Of a DNA stretch of 64,000 bases, positions 15,301 to 64,000 are shown piece by piece. This DNA comes from the human T2T-CHM13v2.0 reference genome, Homo sapiens: NCBI RefSeq assembly GCF_009914755.1, contig NC_060945.1; one strand, 5' to 3'. A program made the position numbers and the translations under genes. Under the pieces are notes generated by a model. It made no database searches, was not told where the DNA came from, and saw only the letters and a program-made list of their open reading frames with translations. Numbering within the stretch: position 1 is the first letter of the stretch; the number at the start of each line of letters is the position of its first letter.

Positions 15301-15600
<300 letters not shown>

Positions 15601-18764: not shown

Positions 18765-18940
18765 ATATTTATTGAATGACTGTTATGTTTCAGGCACATT
18801 GCCTACAGTCCACTAATCCTTAGAGATGAGAAAACAGAAGATGACAAGTTAAGTAATTTTCCCTAAGTTTGGTAAATAAGGAAACCGGGATTTGAGGCTA
18901 TCTGATGCTCAATCCTGCATTATTTCTGCTAACCCAAGCT
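18765..18940 (-). mobile_element. MIR
   Basis: TTTATTGAATGACTGTTATGTTTCAGGCAC...AGAGATGAGAAAACAGA...GTTAAGTAATTT. Confidence 0.6.
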
Positions 18941-19479
18941 GTCTGTTTCATCAGGTAACAATTTTTTTTTCAGGAACTCGTTTAGATTTTATGGTTGTAT
19001 TAGGAAATCAAGCCTAGAATAATGCATAGAGTCATGCTATGCTGAGATGTTTATTAGCTTCTATTTTCAGAGAGAGCTAGATTTGCTTTTTCCTGGATCA
19101 ACTTTCTAAGTTCTAAAGCAAATGCCCCAAAGAATATTTCAGGTAGAGCTTAGTTCTCCATCTTGAAAATTCATACCACAACCCTTCTTGAGTGCCTGCT
19201 AAGAGCAGTTTCCATGTGAAGTGCTTGGAGATGATTAAAACACATCACTGCCTATGGGGCTCTCAAGGTGAAGTGAAGGGAACTCCTAGAGACCCAGAGA
19301 ACTGTACATAATGAGAAAGTGCAGTGGTGCAGCTGAGCACGGGAGCCTAGAAAGAGCATAATACCTTCAACTGCTATTGATTGAGTGTTACTCTGCTTCT
19401 CTGTCTCTGCTTCTCTGTCTCTGTCTAGCATGCCTAAGTTTGCTATTTCCAAGATCTGGATTTTGGGGTATAATGCCTA

Positions 19480-19995
19480 TCTGCTGTTTTTTTTTTTCTG
19501 TCCCCCTCTCCCCACTCTTTTTTGGCACTACACTGTTTTTCTTCTGAAAAACTGTCCTTCTGCCATACCTGGTTCATGTGACTCTGAAGTGTGGCTTGAT
19601 CCACTTCTTGGCAAGGACTCACATGAGAGGCCTGGCCCATTGGTGTATTCCACATCCCTGTCCAGTGGCTGGTTTGGGAATAGGCATGTGACCCAAGTCA
19701 GACCAGAGCAGAGTAATCTGAGGACATTCAGGGACCTATGGAGAAAGAGATACCCTCTTTATGGCTGCTGAGCAGGTAGGAGGCACAGCTGGATATACAG
19801 AGCTCCCATAGAGGACAGGGTGCCTGGGAAAGAAGCTGATGTAGAAGACAAAATGTGGGCGGGGTCCTGGTGACAACTTTGTGTCCTGGGCCAGGCCATA
19901 TTTAACTAGATGCATGGACTTGTAGATCTGTAATCCCACAAATCTCCAACACGTCCTTTACCCTATCTCACCAGGAAGAGTTTGAGTAACCCTTA
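19480..19995 (+). mobile_element. old MaLR LTR (MLT1K/J-like)
   Basis: GGCATGTGACCCAAGTCAGACCA motif; GGGTCCTGGTGACA. Confidence 0.6.
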
Positions 19996-19996
19996 A

Positions 19997-20514
<518 letters not shown>

Positions 20515-21094
20515 TTCTAAAAACCTTGGTTTCACCATCAATGGTTATTTGCAGGTCACGTCACTGGTCACTGGTGGCCTTCTCACAGCATAAAACTGTT
20601 AATGAACTGAGACTGTAGACTTGAAAAAAGTGTGAAATGGAAAAACACCAAAACACCTGTCTTCTGTGATGTTTGTATACAACCAATTATTTGCAATAAT
20701 CACAACCGGCTTGAATACAATATAAAAAGAACCTTTCCATTATACTGTTAAAAGTATACAAATGCCTCACTCAAGTCTTTCAATTAATATAAAGTATGAT
20801 TGAGAAATTAAGCTTGTTAACTTTCCACCCCCATTCACCTAACGCAACATATTCAATATCATATATAAGAAACCTAAAACCACACCTAAACATGTAAAAC
20901 TCACCTAAACATTCATGTTCTGGTGCTATTGGCTGTACAAGTATGAGGAGATAGCTTTTAAATAAAAATGGCAACATATATTAAGTATATTTCATGAGGT
21001 AAGAAATTGCATGATTACCTAAGTCCTTTTGATGTAAATTGTACCACATTTTGCCTGCTCTGCCGGTTTAAACAAATCCACAGCCCTGGAAATT

Positions 21095-21515
21095 ACTCTA
21101 GATTTGATTTTTGCGCTTCTATGCAAACTATACCACAACCCATCTTGCAAACTATACCACAATCCTTCTTGAGTACCTGCTCTAGATTTGAACTAGAGCA
21201 GGTTGCTTGGGTCCCTAGGTGTTCCCTTCACTTCATCTTAAGCGTCTCATAGGCAGTGATGTGTTTTAATAATCTCCAAGCACTTCACATAGAAACTGCT
21301 CTTAGCAGGTACTCAAGAAGGGTTTTGGTATAGTTTGCACAGAAGTGCAAAAATCAAATCTAGAGTTAACTACTCTAGCACCAAATCCAGAGTAGTTAAC
21401 ACTCTTGAATACCTGCTCTAAATTTAAACCTGAGCATGTTTAAAGAAGGTGTCAATCTGAAGAGGTAGGACCAGTCATCACTGTAAGTAATGAAAAGGGA
21501 AGTCAGTGGAGGAAC
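21095..21515. repeat. complex locally templated insertion (inverted and direct copies, hairpins)
   Basis: 21208-21331 is the reverse complement of 19173-19296; 21431-21515 matches 22046-22130; 21095-21141 is inverted relative to 21320-21366. Confidence 0.9.
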
Positions 21516-22439
21516 ATATATTTCTTCAAATACAAGAACATTCCCTTATGCAAGCTTTCCCTTCCCCAAACTCTATGCAATATTATTTGCCCAGTGGCAG
21601 GAATCATGCTTAAGCCATTAGCATCATAAATTGCTTAGAAAACAAAGTATGGCTTATTTGAAAGATATATGGAGAACTGAGCAAATTAAGTCTGTCCCTG
21701 CTGTTTTATCTTTATTTATTAATGGCAATAATTCTGTCCTAATCGTTTGTATAGCACTTAGTCAATTATGTGGCATCTAAAGCTCTTCAAGTGATTTTAG
21801 TTAATGTCTTCCTTTTTCTCCTGCACAGGCAGATGCAAATTGCTCTGGGGAAAGTTGTAAGGTCAAGGGCAGTTGTGGTTTCTGCTGTTAAGGGAATCTG
21901 TACAGTCACCCCTCTTCCCAAGACAAGAACTTAGAATTGATGAAGTAAGCAATCAACAGATCACAGCAGATATAAGGAAAGTACTTTAAAGAGACGGAAT
22001 GGTTTGCAGGTGTAGGGGATGATAATGGTAGTTTTATTGGAAGTATGAGCATGTTTAAAGAATGCATCAATCTGAAGAGGTGGGGCCAGTCATCACTGTA
22101 AGTAAAGAAAAGGGAAGTCACTGGAGGAACTTGGCTCTGTCCATCTGAGCTCTGTGGCCAGGGGAGCAGCCACGTGGGATTCCAATTGATTAGTACAGAA
22201 CAGGACCCTGGCTTTTGAGGAGAGGATTCACGGGGATAAGAGCCAGTGAACCTGCTGATAAGATCACTTCTACCAAGCACTTCATTCCTGCAACCACCTT
22301 CCTTTCTCATTTCCAGTTCCATAGTCAGCTTGCAACTTTCTGATTAGAAGGTGGCTTTTTGGGTGGATCTTTTAACTAAAGGAAGAAATGCTTTGGAATA
22401 GGCATTTTGAGTTTTAGTGTTTTTGTGATATGTTTTAAA

Positions 22440-23300
22440 AATATTTTGTATTGTGGTAAAATAACTTGTAATTATTTTAACCATTTCTTGAGTATTCAAT
22501 TCTGTAACATTAAGTACATTCACAATGTTTTGCTATCCTTATCACTATTACTAGAACTTTTTCATTATCCTAAACAGAAATCCTGTACACATTAAACAAT
22601 AAAACCCCATTTCCCTCTCCTCTCAGCCCTTGGTAACCACTATTCTACTCTCTGTTTCTGTGTCTCTGTTTGTTCCAGATATGTCATCTAAGTTGAATCA
22701 TACAATATTTGTCTCTGTGACTTTGGCTGCACTCATTTAGGACAATGTTTTCAAGGTTCACCTGTGTCGTAGCATGTATCAGAATTTCCTTTCTTGTTAA
22801 GCCTGAATAATATTCCAGTGTGTGCACATACCACATTTCATTCATCTATTAATCTGTTCATAGACATTATGGGTTTTTTCCACCTTTTGGCTATTGTGAA
22901 CAATTCTGCTATGAGCTTTGGCGTGCATGGATCTAGTTGAGTTCCCATTTTGAATTTGTTTGGGTAGATACTCAGAAGTGGAATTGCTGGGTCCTATGGC
23001 AAGTCTCTGTTTAACTTTTTGAGGAATCTCCAAACTGTCTTCCACATTGGCTGCACCATTGCATAATCCCAGCGGCAATGCACGAAGGTGCCAGTTGCTC
23101 CACATCCTTGCCAGCATTTGTTATTTTCCATGTTTTTATATTAACCATTCTAATGGCTGTGAAGTGGTTATCATTGTGGTTTTGATTTGCATTTCCTTAA
23201 TGATTAGTGGTACTAAGCATCTTTTCATGTGCTTTTTGGCCATTTGTAGATCTCCTTTGGAGAAATGTCTACTCAAGTCCTTTGCCCATTTTTAAAATTA
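22440..23300 (-). mobile_element. L1MB 3' portion
   Basis: Antisense L1 (CATTGTGGTTTTGATTTGCATTTCC; TTAAGTACATTCACAATG). Confidence 0.9.
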
Positions 23301-30010: not shown

Positions 30011-30919
30011 CACTCCTACCACTAGCGACCCTGCTTTATTTTCCCCTAGCACCTCTCACCATCTGACATTTGATCTATGTGCTGATTAACTCCATGAGAG
30101 AGTAAGGCTTTGCTCTGTCTGCTCTTTTCTCCCCAGTACCTATACTATACAGCAATCAATAACTAATACACATGTTTTGCATTAGTTTCATAAATCCAAC
30201 TAATCATTGCAGCAATAGCTTGCTTTCAAAGGATGCAGTGCTTGGATTTCATTTGTGCAGCTATATCTGTAATGCTCACCTAGATTTTGTTTGTAAAGTT
30301 ACAGTCAAGCAGCCTCCCCATTAGGGGTTCCGCTACACTGTTTTTCCATCAAACATTGTTTTTACTCAAAAAAATTACTCCTATGAAGATGTTTTATCTA
30401 ATAAATCTTCCACTTGGTGGCTTATAAAAAATGTAGTTTATCATATATTGCCTTGCTGAAACAGGATCTAGCAAATATATCAGCTGAGGCATTAGAAATA
30501 TCTGTACTCTCATCCATGTAATAATCTAACATTTTCCACTGTATAATTTATCCCATACTTTTATCTTCAAGATTTTACTGAAATCTCTTCCTGATTTGTT
30601 GACAATGAAAAGCATTTTAATTTGTCAACATATATTGGTTCCTATGTATCCATTTAGCCATTTTTCTTCAAGAGGATGAATAAGTGCTTCCCTAATGAGG
30701 GTTTTGCTACTGAGTAAGAGACTTCAACAGATCTTCTAAACAAGTATCATTAAGCTTAGTGGAATTTTTTAAGTACTGGGCTGAGTATATAGTACCTTTA
30801 AATTTAAGCAATAAATAAATAAACAGGTAGTTGTTTTTAGGTTCTAATTTTAAGTGTCCTGCTAATTGTGATGATATCAAGGCTCAATTACACACCCAGA
30901 ATGACTTTCATTATTAAAG

Positions 30920-31545
30920 GACAATCCATATTGCAAACTCAATGGCTACATGGTCTCCCTGCTTCCACCCTCACTCCTTTTGTTAATCTCAGCCAGAAAA
31001 AGCAGGTTATATCCTGTCACATCCCTGGGCAGAGTTTCCAGTGCCTCTTCCTCCCGTTCATAGGAATGGCCTGAGTCCTTATAGGCCCCTGCATGACCTT
31101 GACCTTCATCAGCCCCCAGTGCTTGGATCATGTCACCTCCCACTTTTCTTCTCACTCACTGCTTCTCATCCACACTGGCCGCCCCCATTGCCTTTACATA
31201 ACACCCTGCCCGATGGAGCCTTGCTCCCCCCACCCCTCCTTCCCTGCCTTTGCAATTGCACTTTCTTCTGCTTGGAATGTTCTCCCTTTGGTATGCACAA
31301 GACTCTTTTCCTTTAGGGTCTGCTCAAATATTTCCTTACCAGAGAAGCCTCCCCCAGCTTCTCAGGCATTTCTGACACTGGCTCCCCTGCCTTATTTTCC
31401 CTTAGCACCGCTCACCACCCGACATTTTATATATGTGCTGATTAACTCCATGAGAGAGTAGGGCTTTGCTCTGTCTGCTGTTTTCTCCCCAGTACCTAGA
31501 TTATGCCTGGCATGTAGAAGGCATTTGATAAATATATATTAAATG
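30920..31545 (+). mobile_element. L2a 3' region
   Basis: ATGGTCTCCCTGCTTCCAC...TGCCTGGCATGTAGAAGGCATTTGATAAATA. Confidence 0.8.
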
Positions 31546-35925: not shown

Positions 35926-36621
35926 GTATTTATAGAATTAATGGATGAGGTTAGGGCAAGAAGGGCGAGAATGCAGTAGGAGTATAAGAAGCATTGGTTT
36001 CCGAGATTCACTTGGGCCCAAGCTTATGCTCCCTTTTCCTGTCTGCTCAGAGAACACTGAAGAGCATGCTCTGCCACAAGAGGAGGTCTTTGAGGACTTC
36101 TTTGAAGTCCCAGAGGGGGTCCTGAGATCCAGGAATCGAGCATCAAGCGGCTCTCAGATTTGTTTATATGTTTTGGCCAATGCCATACATTGTATGGCCT
36201 TAATTTAGGGTAAAAAAAATGGCTGCTTTAGAAAAAATGTTTTGGGCATAGAAAAAAAGACCTTGATTTTTTAAAAGAGATTGTTTATTAATTATTAATC
36301 AAAGGCATTTTTTCAGGACATTAGGTCAGGTTCTATAAGAAGTGTGATGGCTTATTTTTTTTCTCTTAGTAAGGCTACATTCTACCTGAGAACTCAGGAC
36401 CTGAGGACATGGTTATAGGAAGAAAAATCATAGATGAAAAATGGTTAACAATAGTCAGTACTTAGCATTGATTCCCACAATATCATTATGTATATTTCAA
36501 TTCGATTACAGACAAAGCCATTAAAAATGAATTCTTTTAGTTCTTTAATTTATTCTTAAATTAGCTATACCATTTTTTCTTTGAAATATTTTATGTTCTT
36601 TTTCTTTTAAAAAACTTAAGA

Positions 36622-37075: not shown

Positions 37076-38414
37076 CTATTTTAAAACACAATGAGAATAT
37101 AAGAGAAGACAGCTCTTAGTCATAGCCATCCCGGACTTCTTCCCAACAGGTACAGATTGCGGAGTCTTATTTGTCTTATCCAGGGATCTTGGGGAAAGGG
37201 TGGCTAATATTTGAACCCTCTTAGGGGCAGATTCTAAGAAAGTACATCTTCCCCTTCTTCTGGGATTTCAGGTCAGAAAAACAGACACAGAAGCAGAGAT
37301 AATGGTGACTCTGTAGTTGTGGGATCCATAGCTGGCACTGAAAAAATATATAGTATATCATTATAAAGCTTTTAATTTTTATAAATTCAAATGTATGTTA
37401 AATATATACATAGTATCAGTGTCCATAATATCACTATCTGTCCCTCCCAGAGGATCTCCAATGTTATTTATGGTCCTAATGTCGGAGGACAAATTATAGA
37501 ACAGTAATGACTGAAACAGAGCCAGCCTGTCCTCAACTCTCCCCATGCCATTATGTATATTTCAATCCTATTACAGACAGAGCAAGCAAGTCCAGAACGA
37601 AAAGTAAGAATTGTGCCAATCAATCAGAATTAGTTTTACCTAAATGATATTATGAGATGCAAAAATATGGCTTTAGACACTGAAATTAGACACTGAAGCT
37701 GGTGTCCTCTGTGCAGAGAATGCTAATGCTGAGATTGTGGTCCCTAGTGGCAACACCAGCTGCCCCACTGCCGACCCGTGCCCTGACGCTCTTCTTGGAA
37801 ATCAGCTTGTCAAATGTTGGGAGTGCTGCGATGCGTCTGCACGGATCCATTTAGAACTCCTTCTCATTCGCATTCATCACAGCTGGCATGAATTCACAAG
37901 TGATGGCAGCAAAATGTTTCTGCCAGTTTCTAATGCCTCTTAGAAATATGGGCGTTTTTAACAAGTGGTTGCCTGACTGCTAAGCAAACACACTGAGATA
38001 ATTTCTCTGAAAAGAGAGCTCATTGTTAAACACGGACACTTCTGGCAGTATTCCTGCTAATCCATCCCTGTTCACTGTGTCACTGTGCCAGCATCATGTG
38101 GACATAAGAATGGATGCCATAGCTGTCCATTATTTCTGACATCATGGCAATATGTTGGGTGGAAAATAGTAGTTATTTCTTCAACACGTGAAGAATAATC
38201 ATCAATAGTATTATTCCAGCAAGAGATTTAGGTGAGGTGGAAAAGGATTGGCCCACACTTCTCTGCCCTTCTCTCCATGGCATAAATAATGGTGTGTTCC
38301 AGGGAAATTGTTTGAATGCCGCAGGGTACTTCTGGAAACCTAAACTTCTGAAATAATGCTGCATAACTTCAGAGGTGGGTAAGAAAAGGCCATGCTGAGA
38401 TTGACTTGCTAAAG

Positions 38415-39200: not shown

Positions 39201-39229
39201 CCATACATACATATTTAACATATATTTGA

Positions 39230-40140
39230 TATCATAAAAAATTAAAAACTTTATAATGATATCTATTATAATCAGATTAAAGGAGCTATGGATTTGGAAA
39301 AATATATACTCAAAAAAGCCTTAGATTAATAAGAAAATAATGAAATAGAAAATTGGGCAAATAATATGAATAAGAAGTTTACAGAAAATCCAACTCAAAG
39401 AAGCATCAAATATAAGGGTAAAAATACTCAAATTCACTAGCAGTTAAAATAATAAGACACAACTTTAGATTGCCCAACAATAGAAATGAAGAGCCCCTAT
39501 ATGGTTGAGAATGTGAAGTGGGTACACTTGACATAGCCAATGGAAATATGAGTTGGTCCATTCTCTTTGGATCAAGATCTGGTGAGATCTATTAAAATTA
39601 AAAACCATATGCTCTTTAATCACCAAGCCCAGTATTAGGAAACTATCCCAGAGACAAAAGCTCACTACGTAGGGACAGAAGTACACAGATAGTTAATGTA
39701 ACTTTGTCTCAAGACATGAAGATCAAGTGAATGCCCATTAAGCAAGAAATGGCAGAATAAGCTATGGGTATAAGCACAATGTGAAATCGTATGCAGTTAT
39801 AAACTATTAAAAAACCAGTAAGGGCAATGGCAGTTGACTTTCAGGAAACCAACTCCAAGTGTCATTGCTGAATGAGAAAAGCAAGGTTCGTGGGTGTGTG
39901 TACAATGTGATTGCATTCAAAGCAAAACAAAGACCATGAAACAACTGTGTACGTGTTTGTATATGATTAAATGAACATGGAGAAAAACACATAGGGAGAT
40001 ATGACGGGGTGGGAGAGGCAAGCAAAAAATGTAAAGTGTACACTGAAAATACTAAGCACATACAGTATGACTACCTTCATATAGAATTACGTATGTGTAT
40101 GCAGATGCATAAGTGAGGAGATAAAATATAGATCTATATT
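39230..40140 (+). mobile_element. old L1ME 3' region
   Basis: AGAAAATTGGGCAAATAATATGAATAAG...TGCTGAATGAGAAAAGCAAG. Confidence 0.65.
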
Positions 40141-41033: not shown

Positions 41034-41384
41034 TGCTAATGGTTAGTTTTTTATACCAACTTGGCCAGGCTATAGTATCCAGTTACTCACTCAAACACTA
41101 GTTTAGGTGTTATGATGACATTTTATAGATATGTATATAATCTATATACTATATATCTCTATATATAGTATATATATATACACTATACTATATATCTATA
41201 TATACTATATACATCTATAGATTATATGTGATGTGGTTTATATATATGTATATATGATATACATATGTATGCATATATGATATACATATATATGCATGTA
41301 TGATATACATATATATGCATGTATGATATACATATATATGCATGTATGATATACATATATATGCATGTATGATATACATATATA

Positions 41385-41421
<37 letters not shown>

Positions 41422-57016: not shown

Positions 57017-57782
<766 letters not shown>

Positions 57783-58588
57783 AGTCAGTAGCCAGGATGT
57801 ATGAGGCACTTTACTTCCCCACACCACAGAAGTCCTTTTGTCCCTGTCAATCACGCACCGTCTGTCTCTGGCAGTGGCAATATTGTTGCTGAGTCAGATT
57901 GCTGGTGGCAGGGTTGTCATTTGCTTGTCTTCATCATGTATTTCAGCCTCCTGTGTCTTTTCCTCCTCTTTCTTCTTTATTTTCCCATCAATTCTCCTTG
58001 TCTGCCTGATTTTACCACCAGAAGCTAATCATGATGCACTTTCCTTTATGATAAAGATGCTCACCCCATTCACTGAGCATGGGATCCGACTCTTTGGATC
58101 TTCTTGGTGGTATTCATTTGCTGCCCATTGCCTGGGAGCACCTGGTAATTGCAGAAGATATTTTCCTCTAAGTGCTTAAATGCTGGCAGTCCTTAGGGGA
58201 ATCTGAGGCTTCCATAAAACTGGACTTCAGATGACAAAGCCATGCTACATTAATAGCTCTAGAGATCTGCAGTTGGGATGGCTTATCTTTCAGATGCCAT
58301 CATTTTGGCTTTTAATTTGTTTGCGAACAATATCCTTTGGGGAGCTGCATCCTTCAACGTCTGCCTGCATTATCACATGGGCTTCTTCCCTGTGTGTCTC
58401 CAGATCTCCCTCTCATAATTCATCGGATTTAGGGCTCACCCTAATTTAGTTTGACCTCATTTTGATTATATCTGCAAAAGCCATGTCTTTTACCTGAGGG
58501 TAACAGATAGTAAGAACTTGTGGGCATCACCTAAGAGCAGGGAGTGAAAAAACCAACTGAGGAAAGAAAAATGCAGGGCCCAAAAACC

Positions 58589-62969: not shown

Positions 62970-64000
62970 CTTGGTGGCTGAGTGGATATGGAGGAGGGGG
63001 AGGACCACAGGGTGGACTCCTAGATCAGCCAGAGGGCAATGAGTCCACATACCAAGGTGAGAAAACTCAGGGAGAAATGGACTATGGAGGGTGGAAACCA
63101 GACTGACGTTTTGGTCATATTAAATTTGAAATGTCTATAAGACATTTAAGTGGAGGTACTAGCAGGCAATTGACTATGTAAGTCTAGGGTTCAGAAGAGG
63201 AGACTGAGCTAGTGATGACTTTCTGGACTAGAAGAATACAGATCCAAGGCAGGAGGATCACTTGAGCCCAGGAATTCAATACCAGCCTGGGCAACATGGT
63301 GAGACCCCATCTCTACCAAAATAATAATAATAATAATGAGAAGAAGAAGAAGAAGAAGAGGAAGAGGAAGAAGAAGGAAGAAGAAGAAGGAAGAAGAAGA
63401 AGCCGTGTATAGTGGTGTGCACTTGTAGTCCTCGTAATTAAATACCAGCCTGGGCAACATGGTGAGACCCCATCTCTACCAAAATAATAATAATAATAAT
63501 GAGAAGAAGAAGAAGAAGAGGAAGAGGAAGAAGAAGAAAGAAAAAGAAGGAAGAAGAAGAAGAAGCCGTGTATAGTGGTGTGCACTTGTAGTCCCCGTTC
63601 CTTAAGAGGTTGAGGTGGGAGGATCGCTTGAGTTCAGGAGTTTGAGGCTGCAGTGAGCTGTGATCGCACCACTGCACTCCTGGGTGACAGAGTGAGATTG
63701 TCCCTAAAAAAGAAAGAAAGAAGACAGGTGACAACATGCAACATGGAACTGAGTGGATGTAAGAAGTGAGTGTGGCTGGAGAAGCAAGACTAAGTCCAAA
63801 TCAAAGACACCACAGTATGTGAGGTTGGGTGGGAAAGGAGGAGGACATGGCAAAGGTGTCAGATAAGGACCCCCAGTAGGGCAAGGAGAAAACCATGAGA
63901 GCACAGCATCAGAAGGGCCAGGAGCCAGGCATGGGCTGCAACGGAGGATGTGGGCAGCTGAGAGGACTAGTGGAAGAATGACAGACAGGTGCCACGAATT
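62970..64000 (-). mobile_element. L2 interrupted by AluJ
   Basis: TTTTGGTCATATTAAATTTGAAATGTCTATAAGACATTTAAGTGGAG. Confidence 0.6.
63244..63720 (+). mobile_element. AluJ with internal 154-bp tandem duplication and (AAT)n(GAA)n linker
   Basis: Copies at 63278-63431 and 63441-63594. Confidence 0.92.

What the first reader, a model, noticed from the sequence alone, without database searches (positions are those of the whole stretch)
21095..21515. Patchwork repair scar: multi-template insertion with inverted and direct copies plus snap-back hairpins
About 420 bp are built almost entirely from nearby DNA. (a) 21208-21331 is the reverse complement of 19173-19296 (11 mismatches in 124 bp). (b) 21431-21515 is a direct copy of 22046-22130 (7 in 85). 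(c) 21095-21141 and 21320-21366 form a 47-bp inverted repeat (3 mismatches). (d) TGCAAACTATACCACAA is duplicated (21122, 21146), and 21139-21181 resembles 19158-19200. (e) Perfect hairpins: CCTGCTCTAG-7nt-CTAGAGCAGG (21176-21202) and GTTAACTACTCT-12nt-AGAGTAGTTAAC (21365-21400). (f) 21404-21436 re-copies 21168-21200. I recognise no transposon here. Inference: one fixed germline event of iterative template switching (polymerase-theta/SD-MMEJ or MMBIR type). The matching ~8-9% divergence of both long copies supports a single event in simian ancestry. It creates a new, strongly folding sequence.
Basis: partly seen in the sequence, partly recalled or inferred. Interest (0 to 1): 0.8.

Follow-up and report, generated by a model that had tools for sequence, protein, structure and literature searches.

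The report
Old local template-switch patchwork, not a transposon
A 420-base stretch of human chromosome 21 is stitched together from direct and inverted copies of DNA lying within 2 kb, most likely an old, harmless scar of error-prone copying that also made an unusually strong hairpin.

Summary
The block folds better than any other of 708 same-size windows in the 64 kb.

Whole-genome searches of the T2T assembly with the block, both source regions and both flanks return only local matches. The same tool finds two old dispersed families elsewhere in the window at 67-79% identity. There is no target-site duplication and no Rfam match.

All copy pairs have statistically indistinguishable divergence: 32 differences in 383 compared positions, permutation p 0.54, with low power. 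The five variable sites in the segment present in 3-5 copies are all singletons. This fits one burst of copying.

My best reading is serial template switching at one lesion, fixed long ago and neutral. I could not show that it was a single event, when it happened, or which pathway made it, because no primate genomes were available. This is a large, many-switch member of a known class of mutation. Interest is moderate to low.

The parts
19173..19296 (+). Segment A, presumed source of the long inverted copy. It sits in otherwise single-copy DNA. A weaker direct match of its left end (19158-19200) also exists in the block.
   Evidence: the genome search of 18900-20200 gives only local matches for this part.
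22046..22130 (+). Segment B, presumed source of the 85-nt direct copy. Homology ends sharply on both sides.
   Evidence: the genome search of 21516-22400 gives only itself and the copy at 21431-21515.
21024..21059 (+). Left flank, collinear in four short blocks with the left end of A and with 21146-21183. It could be pre-existing homeology, a decayed further copy, or chance. Its membership is uncertain.
   Evidence: Not significant: 36 of 300 and 51 of 1000 shuffles, and 44 of 637 real windows, score as well.
21095..21121 (+). Outer left arm ('X'), mirrored at 21340-21366. No template outside the block.
   Evidence: 20-nt exact inverted match; the genome search finds only the local mirror.
21122..21171 (+). 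24-nt tandem duplication inside the left arm, absent from the right arm.
   Evidence: period 24, 2.1 copies, 92%. (17-mer at 21122 and 21146).
21140..21181 (+). Direct copy of the left end of A (19158-19200, 88%). It also forms the inner left arm, pairing with 21304-21339 (34 of 36).
21175..21203 (.). Hairpin 1, perfect 11-nt stem with a 7-nt loop. Its first arm straddles the join between A-type sequence and a 12-nt re-use of the start of X (21180-21191 = 21096-21107).
21208..21331 (-). Inverted copy of A (113 of 124).
21304..21366 (-). Right arm of the large inverted repeat. It pairs with 21095-21181 and closes a stem-loop of about 270 nt.
21365..21400 (.). Hairpin 2, perfect 12-nt stem with a 12-nt loop. 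No outside template. The loop region re-uses short X-end motifs.
21403..21440 (+). Direct re-copy of 21167-21204 (32 of 38). Its last 10 nt overlap the start of the B copy.
   Evidence: D4, D1.
21431..21515 (+). Direct copy of B (78 of 85).

Best explanation
The block 21095-21515 is a locus-specific patchwork, not a mobile element. It may begin about 70 nt further left.

Most likely a single damaged site (a broken or stalled 3' end) in the germline of an anthropoid-primate ancestor was extended by a polymerase that repeatedly let go and re-primed. The inferred steps are:
1. Copy the left end of segment A forwards, twice. This gives the 24-nt tandem duplication.
2. Re-use the first 12 nt of the local arm X.
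3. Fold back on itself, making hairpin 1.
4. Fold back 1.9 kb to copy A in reverse.
5. Slide, through the shared A-type homology, onto its own earlier product and copy that in reverse. This makes the big inverted repeat.
6. Fold back again, making hairpin 2.
7. Re-copy part of its own product.
8. Pair through a 10-nt near-match with segment B, 0.5 kb downstream, and copy 85 nt.
9. Rejoin at 21516.

That is at least eight switches. The product was fixed and has since decayed neutrally by about 4% per copy. The roughly 270-nt near-palindrome is a by-product.

Shown: the anatomy, the local-only origin, the equal divergences and the strong fold. Inferred: one event, the order of the steps, the direction (A and B as sources), the pathway and the neutrality.
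For: Local-only origin:
- Genome-wide searches of the T2T assembly with 21095-21515 gave 7 matches, all local, with 3 first-look candidates.
- 18900-20200 gave 4 matches. The only off-locus one is an 84-nt, 76% hit to 19622-19705, outside A.
- 21516-22400 gave 2 matches, both local. 21332-21405 gave 2, both local. 20530-21094 gave itself only.

Positive controls with the same tool:
- Window 22423-22700 gave 2091 first-look candidates. Of the 44 listed matches, 38 are off-locus at 71-78% identity.
- A 171-nt query, 57540-57710, gave 47 candidates at 67-79% identity.

Orthogonal pattern scan:
- The 23-mer shared exactly by A and its copy has 17 off-locus near-matches with 2-3 mismatches, against 4 for the reversed control.
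- In none of the 17 does similarity extend beyond 31 nt.

Direction: both long copies abut other patchwork, while A and B lie in unique sequence. One gathering event is therefore more economical than two exports from the block. This is inference.

One burst:
- Mismatch fractions are 8.9, 8.2, 7.5, 5.6, 8.3, 15.8, 0 and 0% across eight copy pairs. Pooled, that is 32 of 383, and homogeneity is not rejected (permutation p 0.54).
- In the 28-nt segment present in 3-5 copies, all 5 variable sites are singletons. That is a star-like genealogy (read).

Junction: the re-copy of 21167-21204 and the B copy overlap by 10 nt (21431-21440), and the first template matches 8 of those 10. By my own binomial arithmetic the chance is about 4e-4.

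Precedent:
Against: - No outgroup sequence was available. The pre-event allele, the outer junctions and the node of origin are all unknown.
- The homogeneity test has little power. One pair (21167-21204 / 21403-21440) differs at 15.8%.
- About 60 nt (arm X and hairpin 2) have no identifiable template.
- Several internal junctions show only 0-2 nt of overlap.
- The copied pieces (85 and 124 nt) and their distances (0.5 and 1.9 kb) exceed what the papers I read describe. Those give templates within 100 bp for MMB-TI, and a mean template-switch length of 11.56 nt with maxima of 97-180 bp in the high-quality sets.
- A second local-only duplication of similar divergence lies 9 kb away (30020-30148 / 31376-31504, 89%). 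Small local duplications are therefore not rare here and could accumulate stepwise.
- The genome search is heuristic. Its first look skips very common words and scores only the best candidates, so a family of very few or very decayed copies could escape it.
Confidence: 0.6

Rival explanations
1. Stepwise origin. Several independent small events occurred at the same fragile spot over a few million years: an inverted duplication of A, a fold-back duplication making the left arm, a 24-nt slippage, a duplication of B, and later correction of quasi-palindromes into perfect hairpins. No single multi-switch event is needed.
For: - The two perfect hairpins (0 of 11 and 0 of 12 mismatches) and the 15.8% pair bracket the 8-9% of the long copies.
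- Correction of near-palindromes into perfect ones by template switching is the classic mechanism (PMC5453318, passages).
- Tandem slippage is common on its own.
- Another local-only duplication of about the same divergence exists 9 kb away.
Against: - Divergences are statistically homogeneous (p 0.54).
- With about 8% divergence, a perfect 11-12-nt stem is expected roughly 4 times in 10 (my arithmetic), so the perfect hairpins need no later event.
- All 5 variable sites in the multi-copy segment are singletons, with no nested sharing.
- Two unrelated sources 2.9 kb apart have their copies placed 100 nt from each other. In 14-28 kb no other non-Alu repeat exists. That clustering is unlikely for independent events.
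Confidence: 0.28
2. A non-autonomous DNA transposon (MITE or 'Pack' element) with terminal inverted repeats at 21095-21181 / 21304-21366 that captured host fragment A.
For: It has long terminal inverted repeats (49 of 53 and 34 of 36) around a 122-nt core that contains host-derived sequence. DNA transposons that capture host sequence are described in animals (PMC8277862, search listing and abstract only).
Against: - No other copy of the arms or the core exists in 3.1 Gb, while older families are readily found.
- The 10 nt flanking the repeat ends share no direct repeat, read (21085-21094 against 21367-21376).
- Half of each arm is itself A-derived.
- The B copy and hairpin 2 lie outside the repeat.
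Confidence: 0.03
3. The hairpin is maintained by selection as a small-RNA or structured-RNA locus, a young miRNA or endo-siRNA precursor born by template switching.
For: The fold is exceptional (z about -14 as RNA; best of 708 windows). Template switching is reported to have produced thousands of hairpins and at least 18 human miRNA genes in primates (PMC10710096, abstract and passages).
Against: - There is no Rfam match in 18800-22500 apart from four sub-threshold Alu-related hits at 20232-20513.
- The annotation supplied with the task shows no gene or transcript here.
- The arms have diverged as much (5.6-7.5%) as the non-pairing copies (8-9%), so there is no sign of pair conservation.
- A 270-nt stem-loop with a 122-nt loop is not miRNA-shaped.
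Confidence: 0.05

Closest known systems
Short-range template-switch mutations (four-point model; PMC5453318, PMC9435742, PMC10710096)
   Same: A nascent strand copies nearby sequence in reverse-complement orientation. In one step this creates inverted repeats and ready-made hairpins. These mutations are known in the human and primate germline.
   Different: That model covers one switch-and-return and explicitly leaves out long-range switches and successive rounds. The reported mean length is 11.56 nt, with maxima of 97-180 bp in the high-quality sets. Here at least eight switches are needed, pieces are 27-124 nt, direct as well as inverted copies occur, and one template lies 1.9 kb away.
SD-MMEJ / polymerase-theta complex templated insertions (PMC2943611, PMC5728401)
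   Same: Snap-back synthesis gives inverted repeats and loop-out synthesis gives direct repeats. [quoted passage not shown]
   Different: Those were seen at induced breaks in flies, with short inserts and templates beside the break. This is a fixed germline allele of about 420 nt with templates at 0.5 and 1.9 kb. Polymerase dependence cannot be tested. I saw PMC5728401 only as a search listing and abstract.
MMBIR/FoSTeS templated insertions (MMB-TI; PMC8421209)
   Same: Template switching occurs at microhomology. Inverted copies are made. Human germline events use up to five templates without any large rearrangement.
   Different: The MMB-TI search was restricted to templates within 100 bp and to inserts no longer than a sequencing read. 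Here there are more templates at longer reach. Only one junction shows clear microhomology or homeology (10 nt, 8 matching).
Miniature inverted-repeat transposable elements
   Same: Long terminal inverted repeats around a short core, with strong folding.
   Different: It is single-copy in the genome, has no target-site duplication, and its arms are partly made of neighbouring host sequence.

Membership tests
Non-autonomous DNA transposon / MITE | Many dispersed copies in the genome | tested here: not met
   Searches give local matches only. The positive controls find families at 67-79% identity. The pattern scan gave 17 off-locus near-matches, and none extends beyond 31 nt.
Non-autonomous DNA transposon / MITE | Terminal inverted repeats | tested here: met
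   21095-21147 / 21314-21366 match 49 of 53. 21146-21181 / 21304-21339 match 34 of 36.
Non-autonomous DNA transposon / MITE | Target-site duplication flanking the repeats | tested here: not met
   Read. The 10 nt left of 21095 and the 10 nt right of 21366 share no direct repeat at the boundaries. There is no TA pair and no intact TTAA pair.
Template-switch mutation (four-point model) | New sequence is the reverse complement of nearby sequence | tested here: met
   Inverted copy of A (113 of 124), left and right arms, and two fold-back hairpins.
Template-switch mutation (four-point model) | A single switch-and-return explains the whole change | tested here: not met
   At least eight differently templated pieces are present, including direct copies. 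The model's authors exclude multi-round and long-range cases.
Template-switch mutation (four-point model) | Ancestral allele without the change in an outgroup | not testable with these tools
   The genome tool states that this genome has no relatives here.
SD-MMEJ / TMEJ / MMBIR templated insertion | Insert composed of direct and inverted copies of local sequence | tested here: met
SD-MMEJ / TMEJ / MMBIR templated insertion | Microhomology at each template switch | tested here: inconclusive
   One junction has a 10-nt overlap with 8 matching (21431-21440). One junction has a 2-nt overlap (21180-21181). There are 4 unassigned bases at 21204-21207. The outer junctions cannot be defined without the pre-event allele.
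SD-MMEJ / TMEJ / MMBIR templated insertion | Templates close to the lesion (within about 100 bp in the MMB-TI definition) | tested here: not met
   A lies 1.9 kb and B lies 0.5 kb from their copies. The definition is in the passages.
SD-MMEJ / TMEJ / MMBIR templated insertion | Dependence on polymerase theta or on break-induced replication factors | not testable with these tools
   This is an ancient fixed allele, so no genetics is possible.
miRNA / structured RNA gene | Match to a curated RNA family | tested here: not met
   One search gave no match in 21095-21515 at E<=1.
miRNA / structured RNA gene | Expression and processing | not testable with these tools
   No expression data are available here.

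The most novel reading that the evidence does not exclude
One germline event with at least eight template switches, reaching 1.9 kb and copying pieces of up to 124 nt, created a 270-nt near-perfect hairpin in a single generation. That hairpin is, or once was, transcribed and diced into small RNAs. This would be an unusually large example of gene-like structure born instantly from repair synthesis, beyond the size range catalogued for template-switch mutations.
Probability: 0.07. Interest if true: 0.6.

Novelty: new member of a known kind. Interest (0 to 1): 0.33.

Why it matters
If primate genomes confirm a single event, this would be a well-preserved natural record of how far and how often a wandering polymerase can re-prime in the mammalian germline. 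Its scale (about 420 nt, at least eight switches, templates up to 1.9 kb away) is one that current detectors of template-switch mutations and templated insertions exclude by design. It also shows how a long, strongly pairing hairpin can arise at once in single-copy DNA. Otherwise it is a neutral intergenic scar with no sign of function.

Tried and rejected
- Dispersed repeat family: rejected (with positive controls).
- Using a surrounding old transposon as a stand-in for the pre-event allele: not possible. Both flanks (20530-21094 and 21516-22400) are single-copy.
- Extension of the A homology upstream (19131-19172 against 21332-21376): only about 60% with gaps. Three block copies agree with each other against A there, so I treat the copy of A as starting at 19173.
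- Similarity of the left flank 21024-21059 to A and to the block: collinear but not significant. Kept as an open point.
- Right flank and three control flanks: no similarity to the block (185, 283, 234 and 265 of 300 shuffles score as well).
- Known RNA families: none.
- Minisatellite origin: TRF finds only the 24-nt, 2.1-copy duplication in the block.
- Helitron-type capture and AT-rich palindromes: considered from recall only. Not pursued, because the sequence is single-copy and has 40% G+C.

Full report
**Observation**

The sequence, the repeat finder, a self-BLAST, an exact-match scan and TRF confirm every item in the finding.
- 19173-19296 (segment A) and 21208-21331 are inverted copies, 113 of 124 matching, E 1e-45.
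- 22046-22130 (segment B) and 21431-21515 are direct copies, 78 of 85 matching, E 5e-30.
- The large inverted repeat is 21095-21147 / 21314-21366 (49 of 53). A second register, 21146-21181 / 21304-21339 (34 of 36), exists because the left arm contains a 24-nt tandem duplication (21122-21171, 2.1 copies) that the right arm lacks.
- 21140-21181 is also a direct copy of the left end of A (19158-19200, 88%).
- 21403-21440 re-copies 21167-21204 (32 of 38).
- Hairpin 1 (11-nt stem, 21175-21203) and hairpin 2 (12-nt stem, 21365-21400) are perfect.

In 14-28 kb nothing else except Alu elements is repeated at E<1e-3.

The 64-kb window holds 22 perfect hairpins with stem >=10 and loop 3-20. Seven are not low-complexity, and two of those seven are in this block.

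The block folds at -80.6 kcal/mol as DNA (z -13.5) and at -136.4 kcal/mol as RNA (z -14.1). In both cases 0 of 100 shuffles fold as well. It contains the best-folding of 708 sliding 361-nt windows in the 64 kb at only 40% G+C.

**Is it a mobile element?**

- The 421-nt block gave 7 matches, all inside 19.1-22.1 kb of this window, with only 3 first-look candidates.
- The region around A (18900-20200) gave local matches plus one unrelated 84-nt hit to 19622-19705.
- 21516-22400 gave itself and the B copy.
- 21332-21405, which holds arm X and hairpin 2, gave itself and its local mirror.
- The left flank 20530-21094 gave only itself.

The tool is heuristic, so controls matter. In one search the stretch 22423-22700 produced 2091 candidates. 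Of the 44 listed matches, 38 were off-locus at 71-78% identity. In one search a 171-nt query from 57540-57710 produced 47 candidates at 67-79% identity. Old dispersed families are therefore seen at the relevant query lengths.

I also ran an orthogonal scan with the 23-mer shared exactly by A and its copy, allowing up to 3 mismatches. It gave 17 off-locus hits against 4 for the reversed control. I fetched all 17. In none does similarity to A or to the block go beyond 31 nt, and three of them are copies of one unrelated segmental duplication.

The ends of the inverted repeat have no target-site duplication. Rfam has nothing here.

I conclude the pieces are locus-specific. The transposon reading keeps about 3%.

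**Anatomy as a chain of templates**

Read left to right, the block consists of:
- arm X (21095-21121), with no outside template;
- A-type sequence copied forwards twice (21122-21181);
- a 12-nt re-use of the start of X (21180-21191 = 21096-21107), overlapping the A-type part by 2 nt;
- an 11-nt fold-back (21193-21203);
- 4 unassigned bases (21204-21207);
- A copied in reverse (21208-21331);
- the reverse of X and its neighbour (21332-21366), which together with the end of the A copy mirrors the left arm;
- hairpin 2 (21367-21400), with no outside template;
- a forward re-copy of 21167-21204 (21403-21440);
- B copied forwards (21431-21515).

The last two pieces overlap by 10 nt, and the first template matches 8 of those 10. 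This is the one clear microhomology junction. By my own arithmetic its chance is about 4e-4.

Homology to A and to B ends sharply. The weak upstream extension of A (about 60% with gaps) is probably not part of the copy, because three block copies agree with each other and differ from A there.

**One event or several?**

The mismatch fractions of the eight copy pairs are 8.9, 8.2, 7.5, 5.6, 8.3, 15.8, 0 and 0%, pooled 32 of 383. Homogeneity is not rejected (permutation p 0.54), but the numbers are small.

In the 28-nt segment present in three to five copies, all five variable sites are singletons (read). That star-like pattern fits simultaneous copying.

Copies of two unrelated sources 2.9 kb apart lie 100 nt from each other, inside the only cluster of non-Alu repeats in 14 kb. 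A and B themselves lie in unique sequence. One gathering event is therefore more economical than several independent ones, or than two exports from the block.

Three points count against this. A second local-only duplication of similar divergence lies 9 kb away (30020-30148 / 31376-31504, 89%). The 24-nt slippage could easily have arisen later. The perfect hairpins could also have arisen later, although perfect 11-12-nt stems are expected about four times in ten at 8% divergence.

I put a single burst at about 0.6 and a stepwise history at about 0.28.

**Age**

The two long pairs differ at 18 of 209 positions (8.6%, Jukes-Cantor 0.091, 95% interval 5.2-13.3%). That is about 4.5% per copy.

From recalled figures, the human lineage has changed roughly 3% since the Old World monkey split and roughly 5-6% since the New World monkey split. 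This points to anthropoid ancestry some 25-50 million years ago. No primate genome could be searched, because the genome tool states that this genome has no relatives here.

**Mechanism**

The pattern matches what the literature calls complex templated insertion.
- Snap-back synthesis gives inverted repeats and loop-out synthesis gives direct repeats. [quoted passage not shown]
- Human germline templated insertions are reported with up to five templates (PMC8421209, passages).
- Template switching creates perfect hairpins at once (PMC5453318; PMC10710096).

The scale here is larger than in those catalogues. They describe templates within 100 bp, and a mean template-switch length of 11.56 nt with maxima of 97-180 bp in clean data. 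The four-point model also explicitly leaves out multi-round and long-range events.

A left-hand 3' end extended step by step explains the orientation of every piece. A lies upstream on the same strand and is copied in reverse by fold-back. B lies beyond the lesion and is copied forwards in trans. The right arm is then a fold-back copy of the already synthesised left arm, reached through the shared A-type homology. This order is inference.

I cannot tell polymerase-theta end joining from a replicative FoSTeS/MMBIR route. The piece lengths and the reach lean towards the replicative route.

**Function**

I see none. There is no annotated gene and no RNA family. The pairing arms have diverged about as much as the non-pairing copies.

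**Open points**
- The origin of arm X and of hairpin 2.
- Whether 21024-21059 in the left flank is pre-existing homeology or chance. It is collinear with A's left end but not significant.
- The outer junctions.

**Verdict**

This is a large, many-switch member of a known class of mutation, of moderate to low interest unless primate genomes show a single event or RNA data show expression.

Noticed in passing
window 30020-30148 and 31376-31504: A second local-only direct duplication of 129 nt at 89% identity, 1.2 kb apart. The genome search finds only these two copies plus a 40-nt hit on another chromosome. Its divergence is similar to the finding's, so it may be the same kind of event or of the same period.
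   Followed up: partly
window 22423-22700: A member of an old, high-copy dispersed repeat family, with 2091 first-look candidates and listed copies at 71-78% identity. I did not name the family. It served as a positive control.
   Followed up: partly
window 57557-57695 and 58346-58484: Two copies, 78% alike, of an old dispersed family. The genome search gave 47 candidates at 67-79% identity.
   Followed up: partly
window 63273-63435 and 63436-63598: A head-to-tail tandem duplication of about 163 nt at 94% identity.
   Followed up: no
window 37350-37408 / 39208-39266 and 36484-36518 / 37549-37583: Two further low-copy local repeat pairs: one inverted (60 nt, 87%) and one direct (35 nt, 91%). 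I did not check them against the genome.
   Followed up: no
window 41143-41416: An AT/TATG-rich microsatellite-like tract that holds most of the window's perfect short hairpins.
   Followed up: no
window 20206-20520: An Alu element lies between segment A and the patchwork. It gives sub-threshold Rfam hits to SRP RNA, mir-1268 and mir-3135 and is 94% identical to the Alu at 15301-15593. If it inserted after the event, A was about 0.3 kb closer to the block at the time.
   Followed up: no
L011, L021, L023 (chromosomes 3, 14 and 22 of the same assembly): Three 623-nt stretches, fetched only as chance pattern hits, are 97.9-99.8% identical to each other. They belong to an unrelated inter-chromosomal segmental duplication.
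   Followed up: no
window 20875-20912: A 19-nt unit repeated 1.9 times at 89% in the left flank region.
   Followed up: no
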